Shown piece after piece: positions 1-6,000 of a DNA stretch of 64,000 nt. How positions within the stretch are numbered: the stretch's first letter is position 1; the number at the start of each line of letters is the position of its first letter. This DNA comes from a virus (lineage: Duplodnaviria; Heunggongvirae; Uroviricota; Caudoviricetes): the IMG/VR virus record IMGVR_UViG_2718218449_000002. One strand, written 5' to 3'. The position numbers were made by a program.

Positions 1-3000
1 TTTTTCAACTTCCACAGCGTATCAATGACGTCATTCAAATCAATATTGAGACCTTTAGAAATGCTGTCGGCTGTTGCTTTTCCTAATTTGTTCAATTCTG
101 TGAGTACGGCGTTCATTTTTTTCTCCTGATATTTTAATGTCGGTGGGGGTGTTATGCGATTGGTGAGGTGTCAGCTTCTTCTACCAGCTTTTCCAGTTCA
201 TCCAGCTTTCGGGAAAGAATTTCACCAAACAGATGAAGTTCTGTATCTGCTGTGATCGGGATCGGAACAAAGCGTATTCCACTTCTGGCAAGTTGATTTG
301 CGATTTCCAGGCACTGCCTTAATTCAACTGGTGATGCCTTTGTCAACGTCGTTTTTTCGCTCATTGGTTTTCTCCAGAAATTTAACAATACCCGGAACCA
401 TCTCAATGGATGGTGTTCCGCATTGGTTACCCCAGACATCAAATCCATGCGAGGTGTGACGGGCGAACAGTTCTATCCGGGGAACATCGCCAAGAAGTTG
501 CACAAGTTTTTCTCGCGCCATATCCGGCTTGCGGGAGTGATCAAGGCGCGGTGCAGTGAATGACTGGATTATTCCGGCGTTAATGCGTTCAGGCAGATTT
601 CCTTTCACTGCAAAAAGGCAGTCTTCGCTGTTAGCGCGAGTGGTGCTACCCATACCCATGACCAGCTTGTCGGTCTGTCTTTTCCCGCATTTGTTCCAGG
701 TTAATCCTTTCATCGTCACCAGACGAAAGCCCCACGCTTCTACAACCTTCAATGCTTCAAGTGGTTGTGTAGGCACCCACCACATAGCCAACAGGCAATT
801 ATCGGCTGCCAGTTCCCATACCGGGAGGCGGCAGATATCCAGAAGACTCATGACCGGATATTTAAAACTTGCACCGCGTTGACCATCGGTTGCTTTGTCT
901 CGGAATGTCCAGGGGGGATCTGCGTAAATGAGAGTGTATTTTTTCGTCATAGCGCGTTTTCAAACTCATCAATGTAAAGTCCTGCTTTAATCAGTCGGCG
1001 ACGGCGTTCGGCCTTTTGCACGTATTCCTCGCGACAGTTTTTTGCTGCGTGTTCACGGCTTCTGCGACTGAATGGAGGAACGGCATTGCGTGAGCGAGGT
1101 GTGTCACGACGAGGATTTGATTCGAGGGAGAAAAAGCGATCAACGATTCCGGTGTCTGTGGTGAATGGTTCTGAAGCCTTTATTTTCACAACCTTACTGC
1201 CCTTTGTCAGGCCGCGAGCTACCTTGTTGAACTCGCAAAGTGAAACACCAAATTTCTCTGCTATTTCACTGCCAGTAACAGGACGACCACGAGACTGAAT
1301 CATCCAGGTGACGCGTTCTTTTAACCCACGGAAGGCACCGGGCCTTCCAGAACGCCTGTAGAAAGCGATCTGTTTCAAATTTTTGTCTCCAGATATGAAA
1401 ACCCCGACGGGATGTCGGGGATGGTAGGGGAAGTTACAGGCTTAACGAGAAGCCTTTTCGGGAATTTCGATCTGACAGTCTTGAAATATCCTGTAGCGTG
1501 CGGCGCATTTCTTCCGTCAGATGTTTGAAGGCGTTAAATTCAGCGACAGCCGCATCGACGTTATAGCCCTTGCTGTGTAGTTCGTTGAGGATACGCATGG
1601 TTGGGCTTGGCATGTCGAAGAGTACAGAAACGTCCAGGTTAAGAGTTTTTCGATCAACATAGCTCATCATGGAGTAGGGGTGGTGCTCTGAAAACCACGA
1701 TAGAGGGTAGTTGATAGATAGTGTTGATTCTGGAAGCTGAAGTTGTTCTGGGATTTTTTGACTGAAATAGCAGTCTTCCAGTTTTTCGAACACTTCCCAC
1801 GCCCGATCGGTTTCGAGCATTTTTGCGTGACGGGCTGCGCCGCGTTCTGTCCAGAGGATGAGGGAGCGAACGTTACGGGCGATTTTCACAGAGTAGTTAA
1901 AAGCTACTCTGTGCTTGAACTCACGTAAAGTTTCACCTTCAAGTTTGAAGAAGTGTTTTTCCTCAATGAAACGACCTTTGTTTTCGTGGTGATTCTGGCG
2001 AATACGAATAGCTTCTGTGCCGTAAAGGTGCGCCAAAAGTTCGGTAGTGATAACGGGGATCTGCTTGTAAGTAATCGTGGAGAGTGTTTCAACAGAAACT
2101 TGAGTTGTCATTATGACGCCCTCGAGTGGTTTCTAAACTATCACCACCGTTAGGTTCGAATCATCGGGTGGTGAGACGTACAGGGTTCGAACTACCGGGA
2201 AACCAACCGGCGAGCTTTTCAGCTCCCCTATACGCCCCACCATAATTCAGATGTGCGCGTGCATACGACAATAAAAAACACGCTCGCGGCGTGTCTCTGT
2301 CGCGGTTTCTATCCGGGGTTCGAATCCCGACGGTCAACTCGACCGTGCGAAGAATATAATCCCGGATATGTGTTGTCGTCAACAAGTGGCGTGCTATCAT
2401 CGAATAGTGTTCTATCCTACTCAGTGAGGTTTAACATGCGTACAACCCAACAATTCAGCATTACATTAACCAACGAAATGGCTGACATGGTGCGCGCCCG
2501 TGTGGCTTCCGGTGCATACGCTTCAGAAAGCGAAGTTATTCGTGAAGGGCTTCGTGCACTGAATGAACGCGACAAAGCAATGGAAGCGTGGTTAATACAC
2601 TCAGCCGCGCCGCCACTCGACGCTATTCGTGAGAACCTAGGCAAAGGGCACTCCATTTCACAGGTTCGCTCTGAGATTCGCGCCCGGAACTAATCTGCAT
2701 GGCATATGAAGTGCCACACTAACAAACTGCTCCAGGTATGGGAATAGTGTCACTTGCAGCACCTATTAGAGATCCGATAATGAACATCATAGCAAGGTTC
2801 TTTTATTTGATAATTTTCTGCATGGCAACATCAGGATGCACTACCACTACGAAAATAAATCGCGGAGATGAAAAGGAACAGTACATCATTGCCTGTGGTG
2901 CCGCTACACCATGGGGAGTATGCTATGATAAAGCCAATGCCCTATGTAAAAATGGATATAAAGACATTTTAAAGGAACAGGGATTTAACAGGAAAGAATT

Positions 3001-6000
3001 AACCATTGAGTGTAAATAAGGCCATCATTTGCAACGTTGAAAAAATTCGCCCGTGCTACAGGGAAAAACTCCAGATCCGCTTCGTTTAACTACGAGGATT
3101 ACCACTAATGGCGATGTTTACCCCCCCTCATCCTGGAGAAATTATTGCTGATATTCTGGAAGATCAGAATATTGGAATCAGGGAACTGGCAAGAGCGCTT
3201 GATGTCGCGCCTTCCACTGTTCAGCGACTGGTTTCAGGTAATGCGACAATATCTCCTGAAATGGCTGTTCGTCTCGCTGCTGTCCTGGGGGGAACTCCGT
3301 CTTCATGGATTCGTCTCCAGACGGCATGGAGCCTTGAAAAAGCGGAAAGAGAAGTTGACGTATCTCATCTCTCAACAAAATACCGCCCGGCAGAAATTTC
3401 GCCTCATGCTTAACCACCGCGCCGTCATTCTGGCGGCGTCGGAGAGTGGAGGATATCAGGTTCCGAATTCTGCGTTGTTCTCCGCGTCCAGGATTTCTTC
3501 AATCTTCCGTACTCCCCGATTATTGTATCGGAAGCTTTCTACCTGCTTATCCGAATACGGGGATTTGTCGATGAACCATTTCCCGTATTGTTCGGTTTTG
3601 AGCATGTAGGTATTGGCAATGCGACCAACCTTGTTAGCGGATATTTTGAGTTTTGCTCCAACTTCTGACGCCGAATAGTAATGTTCATTAATCATCGGTA
3701 GCGGGATTACGTTAGCGCCTACAACGGGATTAACCAGGCTGGCGGCAACGACTTGTTTAGCTTCAGGGGCAAGGTTGGGGAGGAAGCCGAAAAGGTCTTT
3801 CATTGTATCGACGGTCATTTTCAGCGCCCGTGCTTTACGGAATTCCTCAAGGCCGTTAGTCGAATGTTTCGAGGTGATTTTTTGTTGCAGTTGCTGTTGC
3901 ATTGACTCCAGTTGATCGACCAGCGAACGACGGACGGATTTAGATTCACGAGCGGCAACCCGAAGCGCTTGTTTATAGGTCATCACAATAACAACCTGAT
4001 CCGCACCGCCTTTTTTCTTATCCATGGGGGTTACGAAAATTTCGTAACCCCCCCCCATCAAGTTCATCTTTGATGCGTGCAATGAAGTCGTTGTTGCGTA
4101 CTTCTTTTTCACCGCACAGTCTCCGCGCTTCATTCACCATTTTCAACAGAGCCTGGCTGTCGATAGTTCCATTTTTCATTACATTATTTTTCATCGTTTT
4201 AACCTCTCAAGCTCGCCGTAGCGAGTTCAGATAAAAGAAATCCCCGCGAGTGCGAGGATTCTTATTCACCTTTGACCAAGTTGCAGGTTAGCCACGGTTA
4301 ACCTCCTGCGGCGGTTCTGGTAGCGGCATCCAGTGAGTTGCTTGCTCAATACCATTACCCGGCTTAATCGTTGCATCTCCGCGCCGAAAGGTGCTTCCGG
4401 TATAGCGTGCGGAGCATATTAGCGGTTCAACCAGAGAGCTATCGAAATTCACCGAAATAAGCACGTTCTGGCCCTTTTCAGGCATTCGATCACTACAGCT
4501 TATCCAACTATCCGGAGTTACCGGAGAGTTACCAGCCTCATAAGCGGATTTCATCCAGTGCGTAAGCGTTTCGATGCTTACACATCCGCAATCAACGTCT
4601 ATTTTTTCTTTTTGTTCTGACAACCATTCCTGGAATGACAGCTTGGCAGTCTGGCTTGCTGGATCAATTCGTGGCAGGCCGATATATAGTGGTACATTTC
4701 CCGGCTCCATCGAATTGTCGGGACAAATAAACGTGTTACAACCATATTTAACGAGCTCAATTCCCACTGTGTCGATAGTGGCGAATGGTTCAGTGGTCAA
4801 TGCAGTCAACGCAATTTCATAAGCACGGCGCTCAATATTATCTCGCACGTCCAGGCTGCCGATTCGCTCTTTGATTTCTTTAATCATTTCTTTGTCGGTG
4901 AACGTTGTCATGTGTTAGTCCTTATCCACTTCAACGCCATCTTTCAGCGTGATGCCGTGCCAATCATCAGCCCAACTGGTTAACCCAGGCGCATCAATGC
5001 TAGGCATATAGACGCTTGCAGTGTGGTAGCCCTTATCGTTATCAATGCTGGCAACGTGCTCGCCGTTGTATGCGCTCAGCGTGTCTAGGACACTATAAAA
5101 CTTTCCTCCGGCTGCCCTGAAATCCTTTACAGCCTTCACAAGACGATTCCACGCTTTTTCCTGTTCTGGCGTCAGGTCGATTAATTCCTGCAAAGTTGCC
5201 ATTTCAGTTTTCCTTATATGGGTTAATTTTATTGTGCAGTGTGTTGAACGACGCCCATACCACGTCGTTATACAACTCAATAACTAGCTCAATTATTTTC
5301 CCGATTGCCCAGACAAAAATTAGCGGGGATATCGGTGTCATCAACACGATAAACAGAATGAGAAACAAAAATTCTGTCGCTCTACTTTTTCGCGGATATT
5401 CTTTTCTGAATAATGTAGGCACATCACTCTCCTTTGTTGCTCCTCAAAATTTTATGCCCTGGCGCAAAAGCACGCGTTTTGTCTTTGTTTATTCGCCAGC
5501 CATCCTTGCGCGCCTCTTTTGCACAGCCAGCCCATGACGTACCGATATACTCACCGAAATCTGGCGTTTGATATTTACCATTTGTACACTGGCGACAATC
5601 ACAGTAGAGATGCATGGTGTAACTTGCGGCAATAGCCATATCCCCCTCCTTTACCCTGAAGCATGGCGTCGCTCCGCTCTATACCATCCAGCGCGATTCG
5701 CAGTGCCTGAATTGTGGTAGTGCTATCGTTTGGGGCTATTCCATATCGCTCGAATACAGCTAAATGGTTGCGCATAATCTCAGGCGTAAGCTCTTTGTAA
5801 GCATAAGCAAGAGGCTCTGATGCATTATCCGGCACAACCGACGCAGGCGCGGCAGCATAAACAGGAATAACGTCCGCTTGCTCTTTATTGCTTTCATCCG
5901 TTAAAGCCCAGAATAATTTCCCGGCCGGATGTTTGAAAATATAAGCAACTGGTTCTGCACTATCAGCTTCGCGCCGCTTCTGTAGCTCTGCTGCCATCGC

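What the first reader, a model, noticed from the sequence alone, without database searches (positions are those of the whole stretch)
2436..3413. Opposite-strand island of orphan antitoxin-like genes (ParD-type RHH and HigA-type HTH) flanking a small lipoprotein
Three plus-strand genes sit inside the minus-strand early-left operon. Two resemble type II antitoxins (ParD-like RHH; HigA-like HTH) but no ParE/HigB/RelE-type toxin ORF is adjacent. Orphan antitoxins on a phage are candidates for neutralising host toxin-antitoxin abortive-infection systems, or for repressing the neighbouring antirepressor gene as Arc/Mnt do in P22.
Basis: partly seen in the sequence, partly recalled or inferred. Interest (0 to 1): 0.55.

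Follow-up and report, generated by a model that had tools for sequence, protein, structure and literature searches.

The report
Toxin-deleted antitoxin remnants in Stx2a phage
Two antitoxin genes and a small lipoprotein gene in a Shiga-toxin phage are leftovers of several toxin-antitoxin cassettes whose toxin genes were deleted, which is a known kind of genomic scar and probably not a new system.

Summary
Window 2436..3413 carries three plus-strand genes: a ParD-family RHH antitoxin, a 79-aa lipoprotein and a HigA-family HTH antitoxin. They sit between two minus-strand antirepressor genes of a PA2-type Stx2a phage, and no intact toxin gene is present.

The island is a patchwork of scars. Four gene stubs remain: parE (5 codons), a 121-aa gene (17 codons), another HTH antitoxin (about 22 codons) and higB (6-7 codons, with the native TAATG overlap). 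Sister phages with the same backbone carry intact higBA (L094) or intact parDE (L019) in this slot. Four TA types occupy it across relatives.

The "intergenic" DNA at 2112..2435 is not empty. It encodes isrK and a C4-like RNA on the minus strand, as the leader of the antirepressor gene. The isrK promoter lies back-to-back with the predicted parD promoter.

Most likely the island is a decayed TA hot spot transcribed from the parD promoter. Signs of relaxed constraint are nonsynonymous-only changes in the ParD tail and a nonsense codon in higA in one relative.

Anti-addiction activity against sibling-phage HigB or ParE, and Mnt-like control of the antirepressor, remain possible but untested.

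Verdict: ordinary, a new member of a known kind.

The parts
1434..2111 (-). ant1, an ORF6N-type antirepressor gene. It is the left neighbour of the island and is not part of it.
   Evidence: Pfam ORF6N 1e-19; PHROG 1760 anti-repressor 1.6e-122.
2164..2247 (-). C4-antisense-RNA-like element in the ant1 leader. A 36-aa upstream ORF lies within it (2243..2133).
   Evidence: Rfam RF01695, 70.1 bits against a gathering score of 45, E 6e-13, full length. ORF.
2273..2346 (-). isrK-like small RNA with its own terminator hairpin and U-run. It is the first element of the isrK-C4-ant1 transcript.
   Evidence: Rfam RF01394, 53 bits against 50, E 7.5e-10, full length. The architecture matches Gifsy-1 isrK-orf45-anrP (PMC4825925).
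2353..2382 (-). Predicted sigma-70 promoter of isrK (PisrK): -35 TTGACG at 2382..2377 and -10 TATATT at 2358..2353. This places the start near 2346, which is the Rfam 5' end of isrK.
   Evidence: Promoter scan, 10 of 12 matches. The -10 element and a TTGAC(A/G) -35 at the same spacing are kept in L094, L098, L100, L007 and L019 although the sequence between them diverges.
2370..2385 (.). Palindrome GTGTTGTCGTCAACAA over the two overlapping -35 hexamers. In most parDE cassettes it reads CTGTTGTCGTCAACAG, which fits the LexA-box core CTGT-N8-ACAG. Here both outer positions are changed.
   Evidence: It is also present upstream of the Gp49-HTH cassettes in L006 and L007, so it is not specific to ParD.
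2373..2400 (+). Predicted parD promoter (PparD): -35 TTGTCG at 2373..2378, then a 16-nt spacer that includes the TG of an extended -10, then -10 TATCAT at 2395..2400. CTATC/ATAG repeats (2394..2416) over and after the -10 are a candidate ParD operator.
   Evidence: Promoter scan, 9 of 12 plus TG. The region is conserved in about 80 parD loci, with or without parE. Operator assignment is inference.
2436..2693 (+). parD, an orphan RHH antitoxin gene of 85 aa.
   Evidence: PF03693 and TIGR02606 above cut-off. 87% identical to ParD of intact parDE in L005 and L019. Closest solved structure is Caulobacter ParD1, 3KXE. Codons 1-47: 8 synonymous and 0 nonsynonymous changes against the paired allele. 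Codons 48-85: 11 synonymous and 13 nonsynonymous.
2699..2722 (+). parE stub. ATG plus 4 codons (MAYEV) are homologous to parE (MTYEV...), followed by PH and a stop. DNA homology to intact parDE ends at 2712.
   Evidence: blastn window 2353..2712 = L005 3918..4277 (86%), and window 1..2712 = L019 566..3277 (98.6%).
2718..2769 (+). 3' stub (about 17 codons, ...TNCSRYGNSVTCSTY*) of a 121-aa gene that precedes the lipoprotein gene in P22-like phage contigs.
   Evidence: Window 2718..3026 = L105 3940..4245 and L106, 84%.
2780..3019 (+). Small lipoprotein gene (79 aa; predicted signal peptide, lipobox ATSG|C, four Cys in the mature part). It is a low-GC (38-41%) moron of unknown function.
   Evidence: PHROG 9924 8.9e-50; no Pfam, NCBIfam or PADLOC hit. 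Homologues of 82% identity lie between the tailspike gene and gp16 of P22-like phages. AF2 model pLDDT 75, no informative fold match. GC content.
3022..3089 (+). 3' stub (about 22 codons, PSFATLKKFARATGK/LQIRFV*, with a 1-nt deletion at about 3063) of the HTH antitoxin gene of a Gp49(DUF891)-HTH toxin-antitoxin pair.
   Evidence: Window 3022..3438 = L006 3501..3918 (95.7%). Window 3022..3091 = L007 3501..3571 (94%), where the pair is intact. Pfam Gp49 and HTH_3 for the intact genes.
3088..3108 (+). higB stub: the last 6 codons NYEDYH plus stop, with the native TAATG stop/start overlap and the GAGGA ribosome-binding site for higA.
   Evidence: Identical to the 3' end of intact higB in L094. Homology with L094 resumes at window 3086. 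Intact L094 HigB matches PF05015 at 1.4e-21.
3108..3413 (+). higA, an orphan HTH antitoxin gene of 101 aa. Its native promoter and operator, which lie upstream of higB in L094, are deleted.
   Evidence: TIGR02607, 87.2 bits against 47.7. One residue (N5T) different from the HigA partner of intact HigB in L094-L097. Closest solved structures are E. coli CFT073 HigA 2ICP (4.7e-27) and Proteus HigA 4MCX.
3417..3442 (.). GC-rich hairpin between the convergent higA and ant2 genes. It has no U-run on either strand, so it is at best a weak terminator.
   Evidence: Fold -22.2 kcal/mol, z -1.9 on the + strand. The terminator scan did not call it.
3456..4133 (-). ant2, the second antirepressor-like gene and right neighbour of the island.
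   Evidence: PHROG 1726 anti-repressor 1.2e-81; annotated as antirepressor or KilA in public records.

Best explanation
The island is a composite moron. It was built by serial cassette replacement at a toxin-antitoxin hot spot that lies back-to-back with the isrK-C4-ant1 promoter of lambdoid and Stx phages.

Inferred history:
1. An ancestor like L094 carried intact higBA between ant1 and ant2.
2. A Gp49-HTH pair then replaced the higBA promoter and all but the last 6 codons of higB. This is the L006 state.
3. A parD-parE' segment joined to a lipoprotein moron then replaced that pair except for its last 70 bp.

Each step removed a toxin and spared an antitoxin. A deletion that keeps the toxin alone kills the cell, so orphan antitoxins are the expected survivors.

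What is left most likely works as one plus-strand transcription unit, parD-lpp-higA, driven in the lysogen by the parD promoter. ParD, whose RHH domain is fully conserved, probably autoregulates that promoter. The lipoprotein is the likely cargo. HigA, stripped of its operator, is made as a free antitoxin with no resident partner.

Shown: the anatomy, the stubs and the sister-phage states. Inferred: the order of events, co-transcription, autoregulation, and the low functional importance of toxin neutralisation.
For: - Stubs of parE, a 121-aa gene, an HTH antitoxin gene and higB lie at 2699-2722, 2718-2769, 3022-3089 and 3088-3108.
- L094 shares window 1..2368 (97.5%) and 3086..4332 (98.5%) and has an intact 92-aa HigB plus HigA in between. 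L019 shares 1..2712 (98.6%) and has intact parDE.
- L006 shares the HTH-stub/higB-stub/higA junction. L098, L100 and L101 have another RelE-like/HTH pair and a different, shorter higB stub (breakpoint at window 3097), so higB was cut back at least twice.
- In IMG/VR, at least 70 of the 80 ParD loci carry ParD at 86-88% identity next to a full-length ParE (one further locus ends inside parE). All seven loci with 98-100% ParD are the orphan island.
- In 5426 E. coli genomes, 42 have the island, 308 have the 80-90% parD allele, 328 have parE, 68 have this higA and 22 have this higB.
- PparD is the only predicted + strand promoter in 1300-4400, and no + strand terminator is predicted inside the island. 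The native promoters of lpp (upstream of the 121-aa gene) and of higA (upstream of higB) are both deleted.
- Signs of relaxed constraint: within the orphan lineage all three parD changes are nonsynonymous and lie in the C-terminal tail. The tail has pN 0.17 against paired alleles, compared with 0.036 between equally diverged paired alleles, while the RHH half has pN 0. L014/L099 has GGA>TGA at higA codon 10.
- Orphan antitoxins are abundant and are usually read as degraded TA pairs (PMC7192599; PMC10790755).
Against: - The orphan higA of L006 differs from the paired allele by 12 synonymous and 0 nonsynonymous changes. This looks like purifying selection on an orphan, although recombination with paired alleles could also produce it.
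- higA was kept intact, start codon included, in three different arrangements. Only the window/L006 junction also kept the native GAGGA ribosome-binding site. This may mean selection for HigA rather than mere survivorship.
- The higher divergence of the ParD tail also comes with higher synonymous divergence (pS 0.35-0.5 against 0.24). The tail may therefore simply derive from a different parDE lineage.
- The island is about 100% conserved in dozens of Stx2a phages, but these are recent clones and say little either way.
- Transcription, autoregulation and lipoprotein function were not tested.
Confidence: 0.55

Rival explanations
1. Active anti-addiction or counter-defence module. The phage keeps toxin-free ParD and HigA to neutralise ParE and HigB made by sibling lambdoid prophages or by host TA-based abortive-infection systems. 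This would let it infect, lysogenise or recombine in cells that carry those modules, and would protect its lysogen when such a prophage is lost.
For: - Intact higBA occurs in sibling phages on the same backbone, and its HigA differs from the window protein by one residue. This higB is in 22 E. coli genomes, several with STEC strain names.
- parDE with 86-88% ParD is common in STEC prophages, in 328 genomes. Some genomes that carry the island show a second parD place, for example O111:H8 08-4455 and 2013C-4081.
- higA survives intact in at least three arrangements, and L006 shows 12 synonymous and 0 nonsynonymous changes.
- There is precedent for phage orphan antitoxins as counter-defence (AdfA against DarTG1, PMC11825919) and for anti-addiction (CcdA of Erwinia, T4 Dmd; review PMC7354431).
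Against: - Among the island-bearing genomes that were listed, none appears in the complete list of 22 genomes with this higB. Most O157:H7 carriers show a single parD place.
- The ParD toxin-binding tail differs at 13 of 38 residues from the common paired allele and keeps changing nonsynonymously. ParD-ParE specificity is known to turn on a few residues (my knowledge of Aakre et al. 2015).
- One relative has a nonsense codon in higA.
- higA has lost its own promoter.
- No PADLOC defence or anti-defence family matched.
Confidence: 0.25
2. Immunity-region regulator, as for Mnt and Arc in P22. ParD (RHH) binds at the back-to-back PparD/PisrK region and sets the level of isrK-C4-ant1 transcription. 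Plus-strand read-through past higA may also interfere with the convergent ant2. In this way the island would tune antirepressor-driven induction and Stx2 output.
For: - The predicted PisrK and PparD have overlapping -35 hexamers. The inferred start sites are about 60 bp apart, so RNA polymerase and ParD binding at one promoter should affect the other (sequence).
- The RHH half of ParD is invariant at the protein level across 24 alleles apart from a single I9V change in one of them, despite pS of 0.2-0.3.
- Only a weak hairpin separates higA from ant2.
- An RHH gene divergent from an ant operon is the P22 mnt/Pant topology (my knowledge).
Against: - Unrelated cassettes (higBA, Gp49-HTH, RelE-like-HTH) occupy the same back-to-back position in sister phages. 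The geometry is therefore a property of the slot and not of a dedicated regulator.
- The palindrome over the -35s is shared with Gp49-HTH cassettes and looks like a decayed LexA box.
- ParD matches no Arc or Mnt family.
- ant1 already carries an isrK/C4 translational control leader.
- HigA-operator-like sites occur in the window at chance level.
Confidence: 0.1
3. A non-canonical toxin is present. The small lipoprotein, or an unannotated small ORF, would be the toxic partner of ParD or HigA, so the island would be a new three-gene TA system.
For: The lipoprotein lies between the two antitoxin genes and has no assigned function.
Against: - The lipoprotein gene occurs at 82% identity in P22-like phages with a 121-aa partner gene and without any parD or higA.
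- Its junctions with both antitoxin genes are illegitimate-recombination scars that carry stubs of other genes.
- The alternative ORFs have no Pfam hit.
- The true partners of both antitoxins are identified in sister phages.
Confidence: 0.03

Closest known systems
Degraded type II TA loci and orphan antitoxins in Enterobacteriaceae genomes (Horesh et al. 2020, PMC7192599; E. coli survey, PMC10790755)
   Same: Antitoxin genes with full-length homology to paired antitoxins and partly shared flanking context, where the toxin is missing or truncated. The published readings are remnants, anti-addiction or regulators.
   Different: Here two unrelated orphans sit 415 bp apart on an inducible Stx2a phage. 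Four gene stubs allow stepwise reconstruction, and isogenic sister phages still hold the intact pairs.
parDE (RK2 and Caulobacter ParD1-ParE1, PDB 3KXE) and higBA (Rts1/Proteus vulgaris 4MCX; E. coli CFT073 HigA 2ICP)
   Same: Sequence family, domain order, gene order (parD before parE, higB before higA) and the 1-nt TAATG overlap of higB and higA.
   Different: The toxins are reduced to 5 and 6-7 codons. higA has lost its promoter and operator. The ParD C-terminal tail diverges from the allele that is paired with ParE.
Anti-addiction and phage-borne antitoxins (chromosomal CcdA of Erwinia against F CcdB; T4 Dmd against RnlA/LsoA; AdfA against DarTG1, PMC11825919; review PMC7354431)
   Same: A toxin-free antitoxin carried by one genetic element could neutralise a toxin carried by another. 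A near-cognate HigB exists in sibling phages.
   Different: There are no functional data here. Co-residence with the cognate toxins is rare or absent in the carriers examined, and there are signs of decay.
P22 immI (mnt / Pant-arc-ant) and P1 immI (c4-icd-ant); Gifsy-1 isrK-orf45-anrP (PMC4825925)
   Same: An antirepressor gene preceded by an isrK plus C4-type RNA leader, and an RHH gene transcribed divergently from an overlapping promoter.
   Different: The RHH protein belongs to the ParD family, not to Arc or Mnt. It arrived as part of a TA cassette that is interchangeable with other cassettes, and no operator in the ant promoter has been shown.
Prophage hot spots of accessory and defence genes (P2/P4 hot spots, PMC9122126) and lambdoid morons (PMC3594210)
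   Same: A fixed slot between conserved phage genes holds alternative self-contained cassettes on the opposite strand, with deviating GC content.
   Different: In the relatives seen here the slot is filled mainly by type II TA pairs: higBA, parDE, Gp49-HTH and RelE-like-HTH. It abuts the isrK-ant promoter.

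Membership tests
ParD antitoxin (PF03693 / TIGR02606) | N-terminal ribbon-helix-helix domain that matches the family model above the curated cut-off | tested here: met
   PF03693, 32.7 bits against 21; TIGR02606, 53.4 against 46.2, residues 6-51. PDB ParD1 3KXE, E 3e-4.
ParD antitoxin (PF03693 / TIGR02606) | Full-length similarity, including the C-terminal toxin-binding part, to ParD proteins encoded next to ParE | tested here: met
   55-87% identity over at least 95% of the length to ParD adjacent to RelE/ParE-family toxins in plasmids and prophages.
ParD antitoxin (PF03693 / TIGR02606) | Functional parE toxin gene immediately downstream | tested here: not met
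   Only ATG plus 4 homologous codons remain (2699-2713), and homology to parE ends at 2712.
ParD antitoxin (PF03693 / TIGR02606) | Autorepression through an operator in its own promoter | tested here: inconclusive
   CTATC/ATAG repeats over the -10 are conserved in about 80 loci. No binding data exist.
HigA antitoxin (TIGR02607) | HTH_3 (XRE) domain protein that scores above the equivalog cut-off | tested here: met
   87.2 bits against 47.7; HTH_3 4.8e-10; PDB 2ICP 4.7e-27.
HigA antitoxin (TIGR02607) | HigB toxin gene immediately upstream, with overlapping stop and start | tested here: not met
   Only NYEDYH* (3088-3108) remains. An intact 92-aa HigB is present in L094-L097 and L102.
HigA antitoxin (TIGR02607) | Own promoter with HigA operator palindromes upstream of higB | tested here: not met
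   The L094 segment 2646-2978, which holds the promoter and the GTTGCG...CGCAAC repeats, is absent from the window. Similar sites occur in the window at chance level.
Type II TA module (functional) | Antitoxin neutralises a co-encoded toxin | not testable with these tools
   No toxin is encoded in the 64-kb window. Neutralisation of sibling-phage toxins needs an experiment.
P22-type Arc/Mnt immI repressors | Sequence membership in the Arc or Mnt RHH families | tested here: not met
   The Pfam scan at E<=0.01 lists only ParD_antitoxin and DUF7183.
P22-type Arc/Mnt immI repressors | RHH gene divergent from the ant operon, with overlapping promoters | tested here: met
   Predicted -35 hexamers overlap at 2373-2382. 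These are consensus matches only.
P22-type Arc/Mnt immI repressors | Operator for the RHH protein inside the ant promoter | not tested
   Needs EMSA or footprinting on 2347-2435.
isrK / C4 riboregulated antirepressor leader (Gifsy-1, P1 immI) | isrK and C4 covariance-model matches above gathering score, upstream of and co-oriented with an ant gene | tested here: met
   RF01394, 53 against 50; RF01695, 70.1 against 45; both full length on the minus strand, 5' of ant1.
Bacterial lipoprotein | Signal peptide ending in a lipobox with an invariant Cys | tested here: met
   MNIIARFFYLIIFCMATSG|C by inspection. The G-C-T-T-T motif is invariant in 4 homologues. No lipoprotein predictor was available.

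The most novel reading that the evidence does not exclude
The toxin-free ParD and HigA are kept by this Stx2a phage as working weapons. They would disarm the HigB and ParE toxins of competing sibling prophages (anti-addiction or anti-exclusion). Through the back-to-back PparD/PisrK promoters, ParD would also set the level of the isrK-C4-ant1 antirepressor circuit. The island would then influence which Stx phages can coexist in one cell and how readily the prophage induces and releases Shiga toxin.
Probability: 0.15. Interest if true: 0.6.

Novelty: new member of a known kind. Interest (0 to 1): 0.3.

Why it matters
If the ordinary reading is right, the island is a clear worked example of how TA cassettes turn over in a phage slot and why antitoxins outlive toxins. 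That is useful for annotation: "antitoxin" here does not imply a TA system.

It would matter more in two cases:
- The orphans neutralise toxins of sibling Stx prophages. That would bear on polylysogeny and phage competition in EHEC.
- ParD modulates the antirepressor promoter. That would bear on induction and Stx2a production in PA2-type phages, which are carried by clinical O157:H7 and O111:H8 strains.

The slot itself holds four TA types next to isrK-ant and is a modest lead for a lambdoid accessory-gene hot spot.

Tried and rejected
- tRNA genes in 2112-2435. Repeated GGTTCGAA motifs suggested them, but ARAGORN finds none there. The motifs belong to isrK and the C4-like RNA.
- Intact or small toxin ORFs. 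tblastn with six toxins gave nothing below E 0.02 apart from the higB stub. The alternative and antisense ORFs have no Pfam hits.
- Relocated HigA operators elsewhere in the phage. 6 matches were found against 6.1 expected.
- The 14-bp palindrome as a ParD-specific operator. Rejected, because it also precedes Gp49-HTH cassettes.
- Defence or anti-defence family membership. PADLOC gave nothing relevant.
- Literature on this island. Searches for Stx2a with antitoxin and antirepressor, for lambdoid TA hot spots, and for orphan antitoxin with phage found no description of it.
- Full co-occurrence of the island with cognate toxins. This could only be judged from listed rows and "places per record", not from all genomes.

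Full report
**What the window is**

Bases 1400-4200 are 100% identical to Stx2a-converting phages of the Oslovirus PA2 type: PA2, PA8, VT2phi_272, Stx2a_F765 and many Japanese Stx2a prophages. Public annotation there already lists, in order:
- antirepressor (minus strand)
- antitoxin, or ParD family antitoxin (plus strand)
- lipoprotein, or hypothetical protein (plus strand)
- plasmid antitoxin with HTH domain, also named HigA or XRE regulator (plus strand)
- antirepressor (minus strand)

**Checking the observation**

- The 85-aa product of 2436..2693 passes Pfam ParD_antitoxin and NCBIfam TIGR02606. Its closest solved relative is Caulobacter ParD1.
- The 101-aa product of 3108..3413 passes the HigA equivalog TIGR02607 with 87 bits against a cut-off of 48. 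It matches E. coli CFT073 HigA and Proteus HigA structures.
- Both are full-length homologues of antitoxins that sit beside toxins in plasmids and prophages.
- The 79-aa product of 2780..3019 has a hydrophobic N-terminus and a lipobox Cys that is invariant among its few homologues. It has no curated family and matches only PHROG 9924.

No intact toxin is adjacent or elsewhere in the 64 kb.

On the minus strand, 2273..2346 is a full-length isrK and 2164..2247 a full-length C4-type RNA. Both score above the Rfam gathering scores and both lie immediately 5' of ant1.

This is the Gifsy-1 isrK-orf45-anrP and P1 c4-icd-ant design. In Gifsy-1, transcription from the isrK promoter reads into the antirepressor gene, and translation is gated by the RNA (PMC4825925).

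A sigma-70-like promoter (TTGACG, 18 nt, TATATT at 2382..2353) places the start at the Rfam 5' end of isrK. A plus-strand promoter for parD (TTGTCG, 16 nt, TGcTATCAT at 2373..2400) shares its -35 region with it.

**The island is made of scars**

- parE stub. After parD, ATGGCATATGAAGTG encodes MAYEV, which matches the MTYEV start of ParE. DNA homology to intact parDE cassettes ends at 2712.
- 121-aa gene stub. 2718..3026 is 84% identical to a two-gene moron (a 121-aa gene plus the lipoprotein gene). In P22-like phages that moron lies between the tailspike gene and gp16. The window retains only the last 17 codons of the 121-aa gene. This segment has 38-41% GC against about 50% around it.
- HTH antitoxin stub. 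3022..3089 is the last 70 bp of the HTH antitoxin gene of a Gp49(DUF891)-HTH pair. The pair is intact in E. coli prophages L006 and L007. The window copy has a 1-nt deletion.
- higB stub. 3088..3108 encodes NYEDYH and a stop, the exact C-terminus of HigB, with the native TAATG overlap onto higA.

**Sister phages show the intact states**

- L094 shares window 1..2368 and 3086..4332 at 97.5-98.5%. Between them it carries the higBA promoter, an intact 92-aa HigB (PF05015) and a HigA that differs by one residue.
- L019 shares 1..2712 at 98.6% and continues into an intact ParE.
- L006 has the Gp49-HTH pair followed by the same higB stub and higA as the window.
- L098, L100 and L101 have yet another RelE-like/HTH pair and an even shorter stub (DYH*, breakpoint at window 3097) before higA.

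So four TA types occupy one slot next to the isrK promoter, and higB was cut back at least twice with higA spared.

Population counts:
- IMG/VR: at least 70 of the 80 ParD loci carry the 86-88% allele next to a full-length ParE, and one further locus ends inside parE. Every 98-100% copy (seven loci) is the orphan island.
- 5426 complete E. coli genomes: 42 have the island, 308 have the 80-90% parD allele, 328 have parE, 68 have this higA and 22 have this higB.

**Most likely mechanism**

Serial replacement by illegitimate recombination explains the anatomy. It also explains why antitoxins survive: a deletion that leaves a toxin without its antitoxin is lethal, so only toxin-first losses are seen.

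The native promoters of lpp and higA are both gone. PparD is the only predicted plus-strand promoter, and there is no predicted internal terminator. I therefore infer one parD-lpp-higA transcript.

ParD probably still autoregulates. Its RHH half shows 7-10 synonymous changes and almost no nonsynonymous change across 24 alleles; the one exception is I9V in a single allele. The repeats over the -10 are conserved.

The lipoprotein is the plausible cargo. Its other known home is the P22 sieA/immI slot, which hints at a lysogen-expressed surface or exclusion function (inference).

**Is toxin neutralisation still selected?**

Evidence against:
- All three parD changes inside the orphan lineage are nonsynonymous and lie in the tail.
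- The tail has about five times the nonsynonymous divergence seen between paired alleles of similar age.
- One relative (L014/L099) has a stop at higA codon 10.
- Among the listed carriers of the island, none is in the complete list of 22 genomes with this higB, and most show one parD place.

Evidence for:
- L006 higA shows 12 synonymous and 0 nonsynonymous differences from the paired allele.
- higA was preserved in three arrangements.
- A near-cognate HigB circulates in sibling phages.
- Some O111:H8 and other carriers have a second parD locus.

I therefore rank "decayed remnant with residual regulatory use" first (0.55) and "active anti-addiction or counter-defence" second (0.25).

**The Arc/Mnt idea**

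The topology resembles P22: an RHH gene divergent from an ant operon, with overlapping promoters. However, the same position is taken by unrelated cassettes in sister phages. The palindrome over the -35s is shared with Gp49-HTH cassettes, and in most parDE loci it reads CTGT-N8-ACAG, a LexA-box core that is mutated at both ends in the window. ParD belongs to no Arc or Mnt family. Promoter interference is plausible but unproven (0.1).

**Comparison with what is known, and novelty**

Orphan antitoxins are abundant in Klebsiella and E. coli. They are read as degraded pairs, anti-addiction modules or regulators (PMC7192599, PMC10790755, PMC7354431). Phage orphan antitoxins that defeat TA defences are known for DarTG1 (PMC11825919). 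I found no paper describing this island.

It is a new, well-resolved member of a known kind. Interest is modest, at 0.3.

Noticed in passing
window 2164..2346 (minus strand): isrK and a C4-type antisense RNA form the leader of the ant1 antirepressor gene, as in Gifsy-1 isrK-orf45-anrP and P1 immI. A 36-aa upstream ORF (2243..2133) lies inside the C4-like element and ends 22 nt before the ant1 ATG. This differs from the overlapping stop/start of Gifsy-1 orf45.
   Followed up: partly
window 2370..2385; L005-type loci: The palindrome over the -35 of the isrK promoter reads CTGTTGTCGTCAACAG in most parDE-bearing prophages, which fits the LexA-box core CTGT-N8-ACAG. In this phage it reads GTGT...ACAA. 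That suggests SOS control of the antirepressor operon in relatives, lost or weakened here.
   Followed up: no
slot right of window 2368 in L094, L019, L006/L007, L098/L100/L101: Four different type II TA pairs (higBA, parDE, Gp49-HTH, RelE-like-HTH) occupy the same position back-to-back with the isrK-ant promoter in related lambdoid prophages. This is a possible TA or accessory-gene hot spot.
   Followed up: partly
L014 / L099 (IMGVR_UViG_2703718860_000028), higA codon 10: GGA>TGA nonsense mutation in the orphan higA of a phage that carries the same island. It could be a real pseudogene or a sequencing error.
   Followed up: partly
L105 3625..4240, L106 2834..3449: The lipoprotein gene travels with a 121-aa gene as a two-gene moron between the tailspike gene and gp16 of P22-like phages. 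In P22 that position holds sieA and immI.
   Followed up: partly
window 23915..24166: Three tRNA genes lie in a row on the plus strand: Met-CAT, Arg-TCG and Arg-TCT. This is typical of the region upstream of stx in Stx phages.
   Followed up: no
window 324..950 (minus strand): An MT-A70-family DNA adenine methyltransferase gene (DPPW motif) lies downstream of ant1 in the early-left operon.
   Followed up: no
window 3063 (A-run in the HTH-antitoxin stub): The length of the A-run varies among otherwise near-identical copies of the island (window against L011-L014 and L006). This is consistent with the stretch being non-coding now.
   Followed up: no
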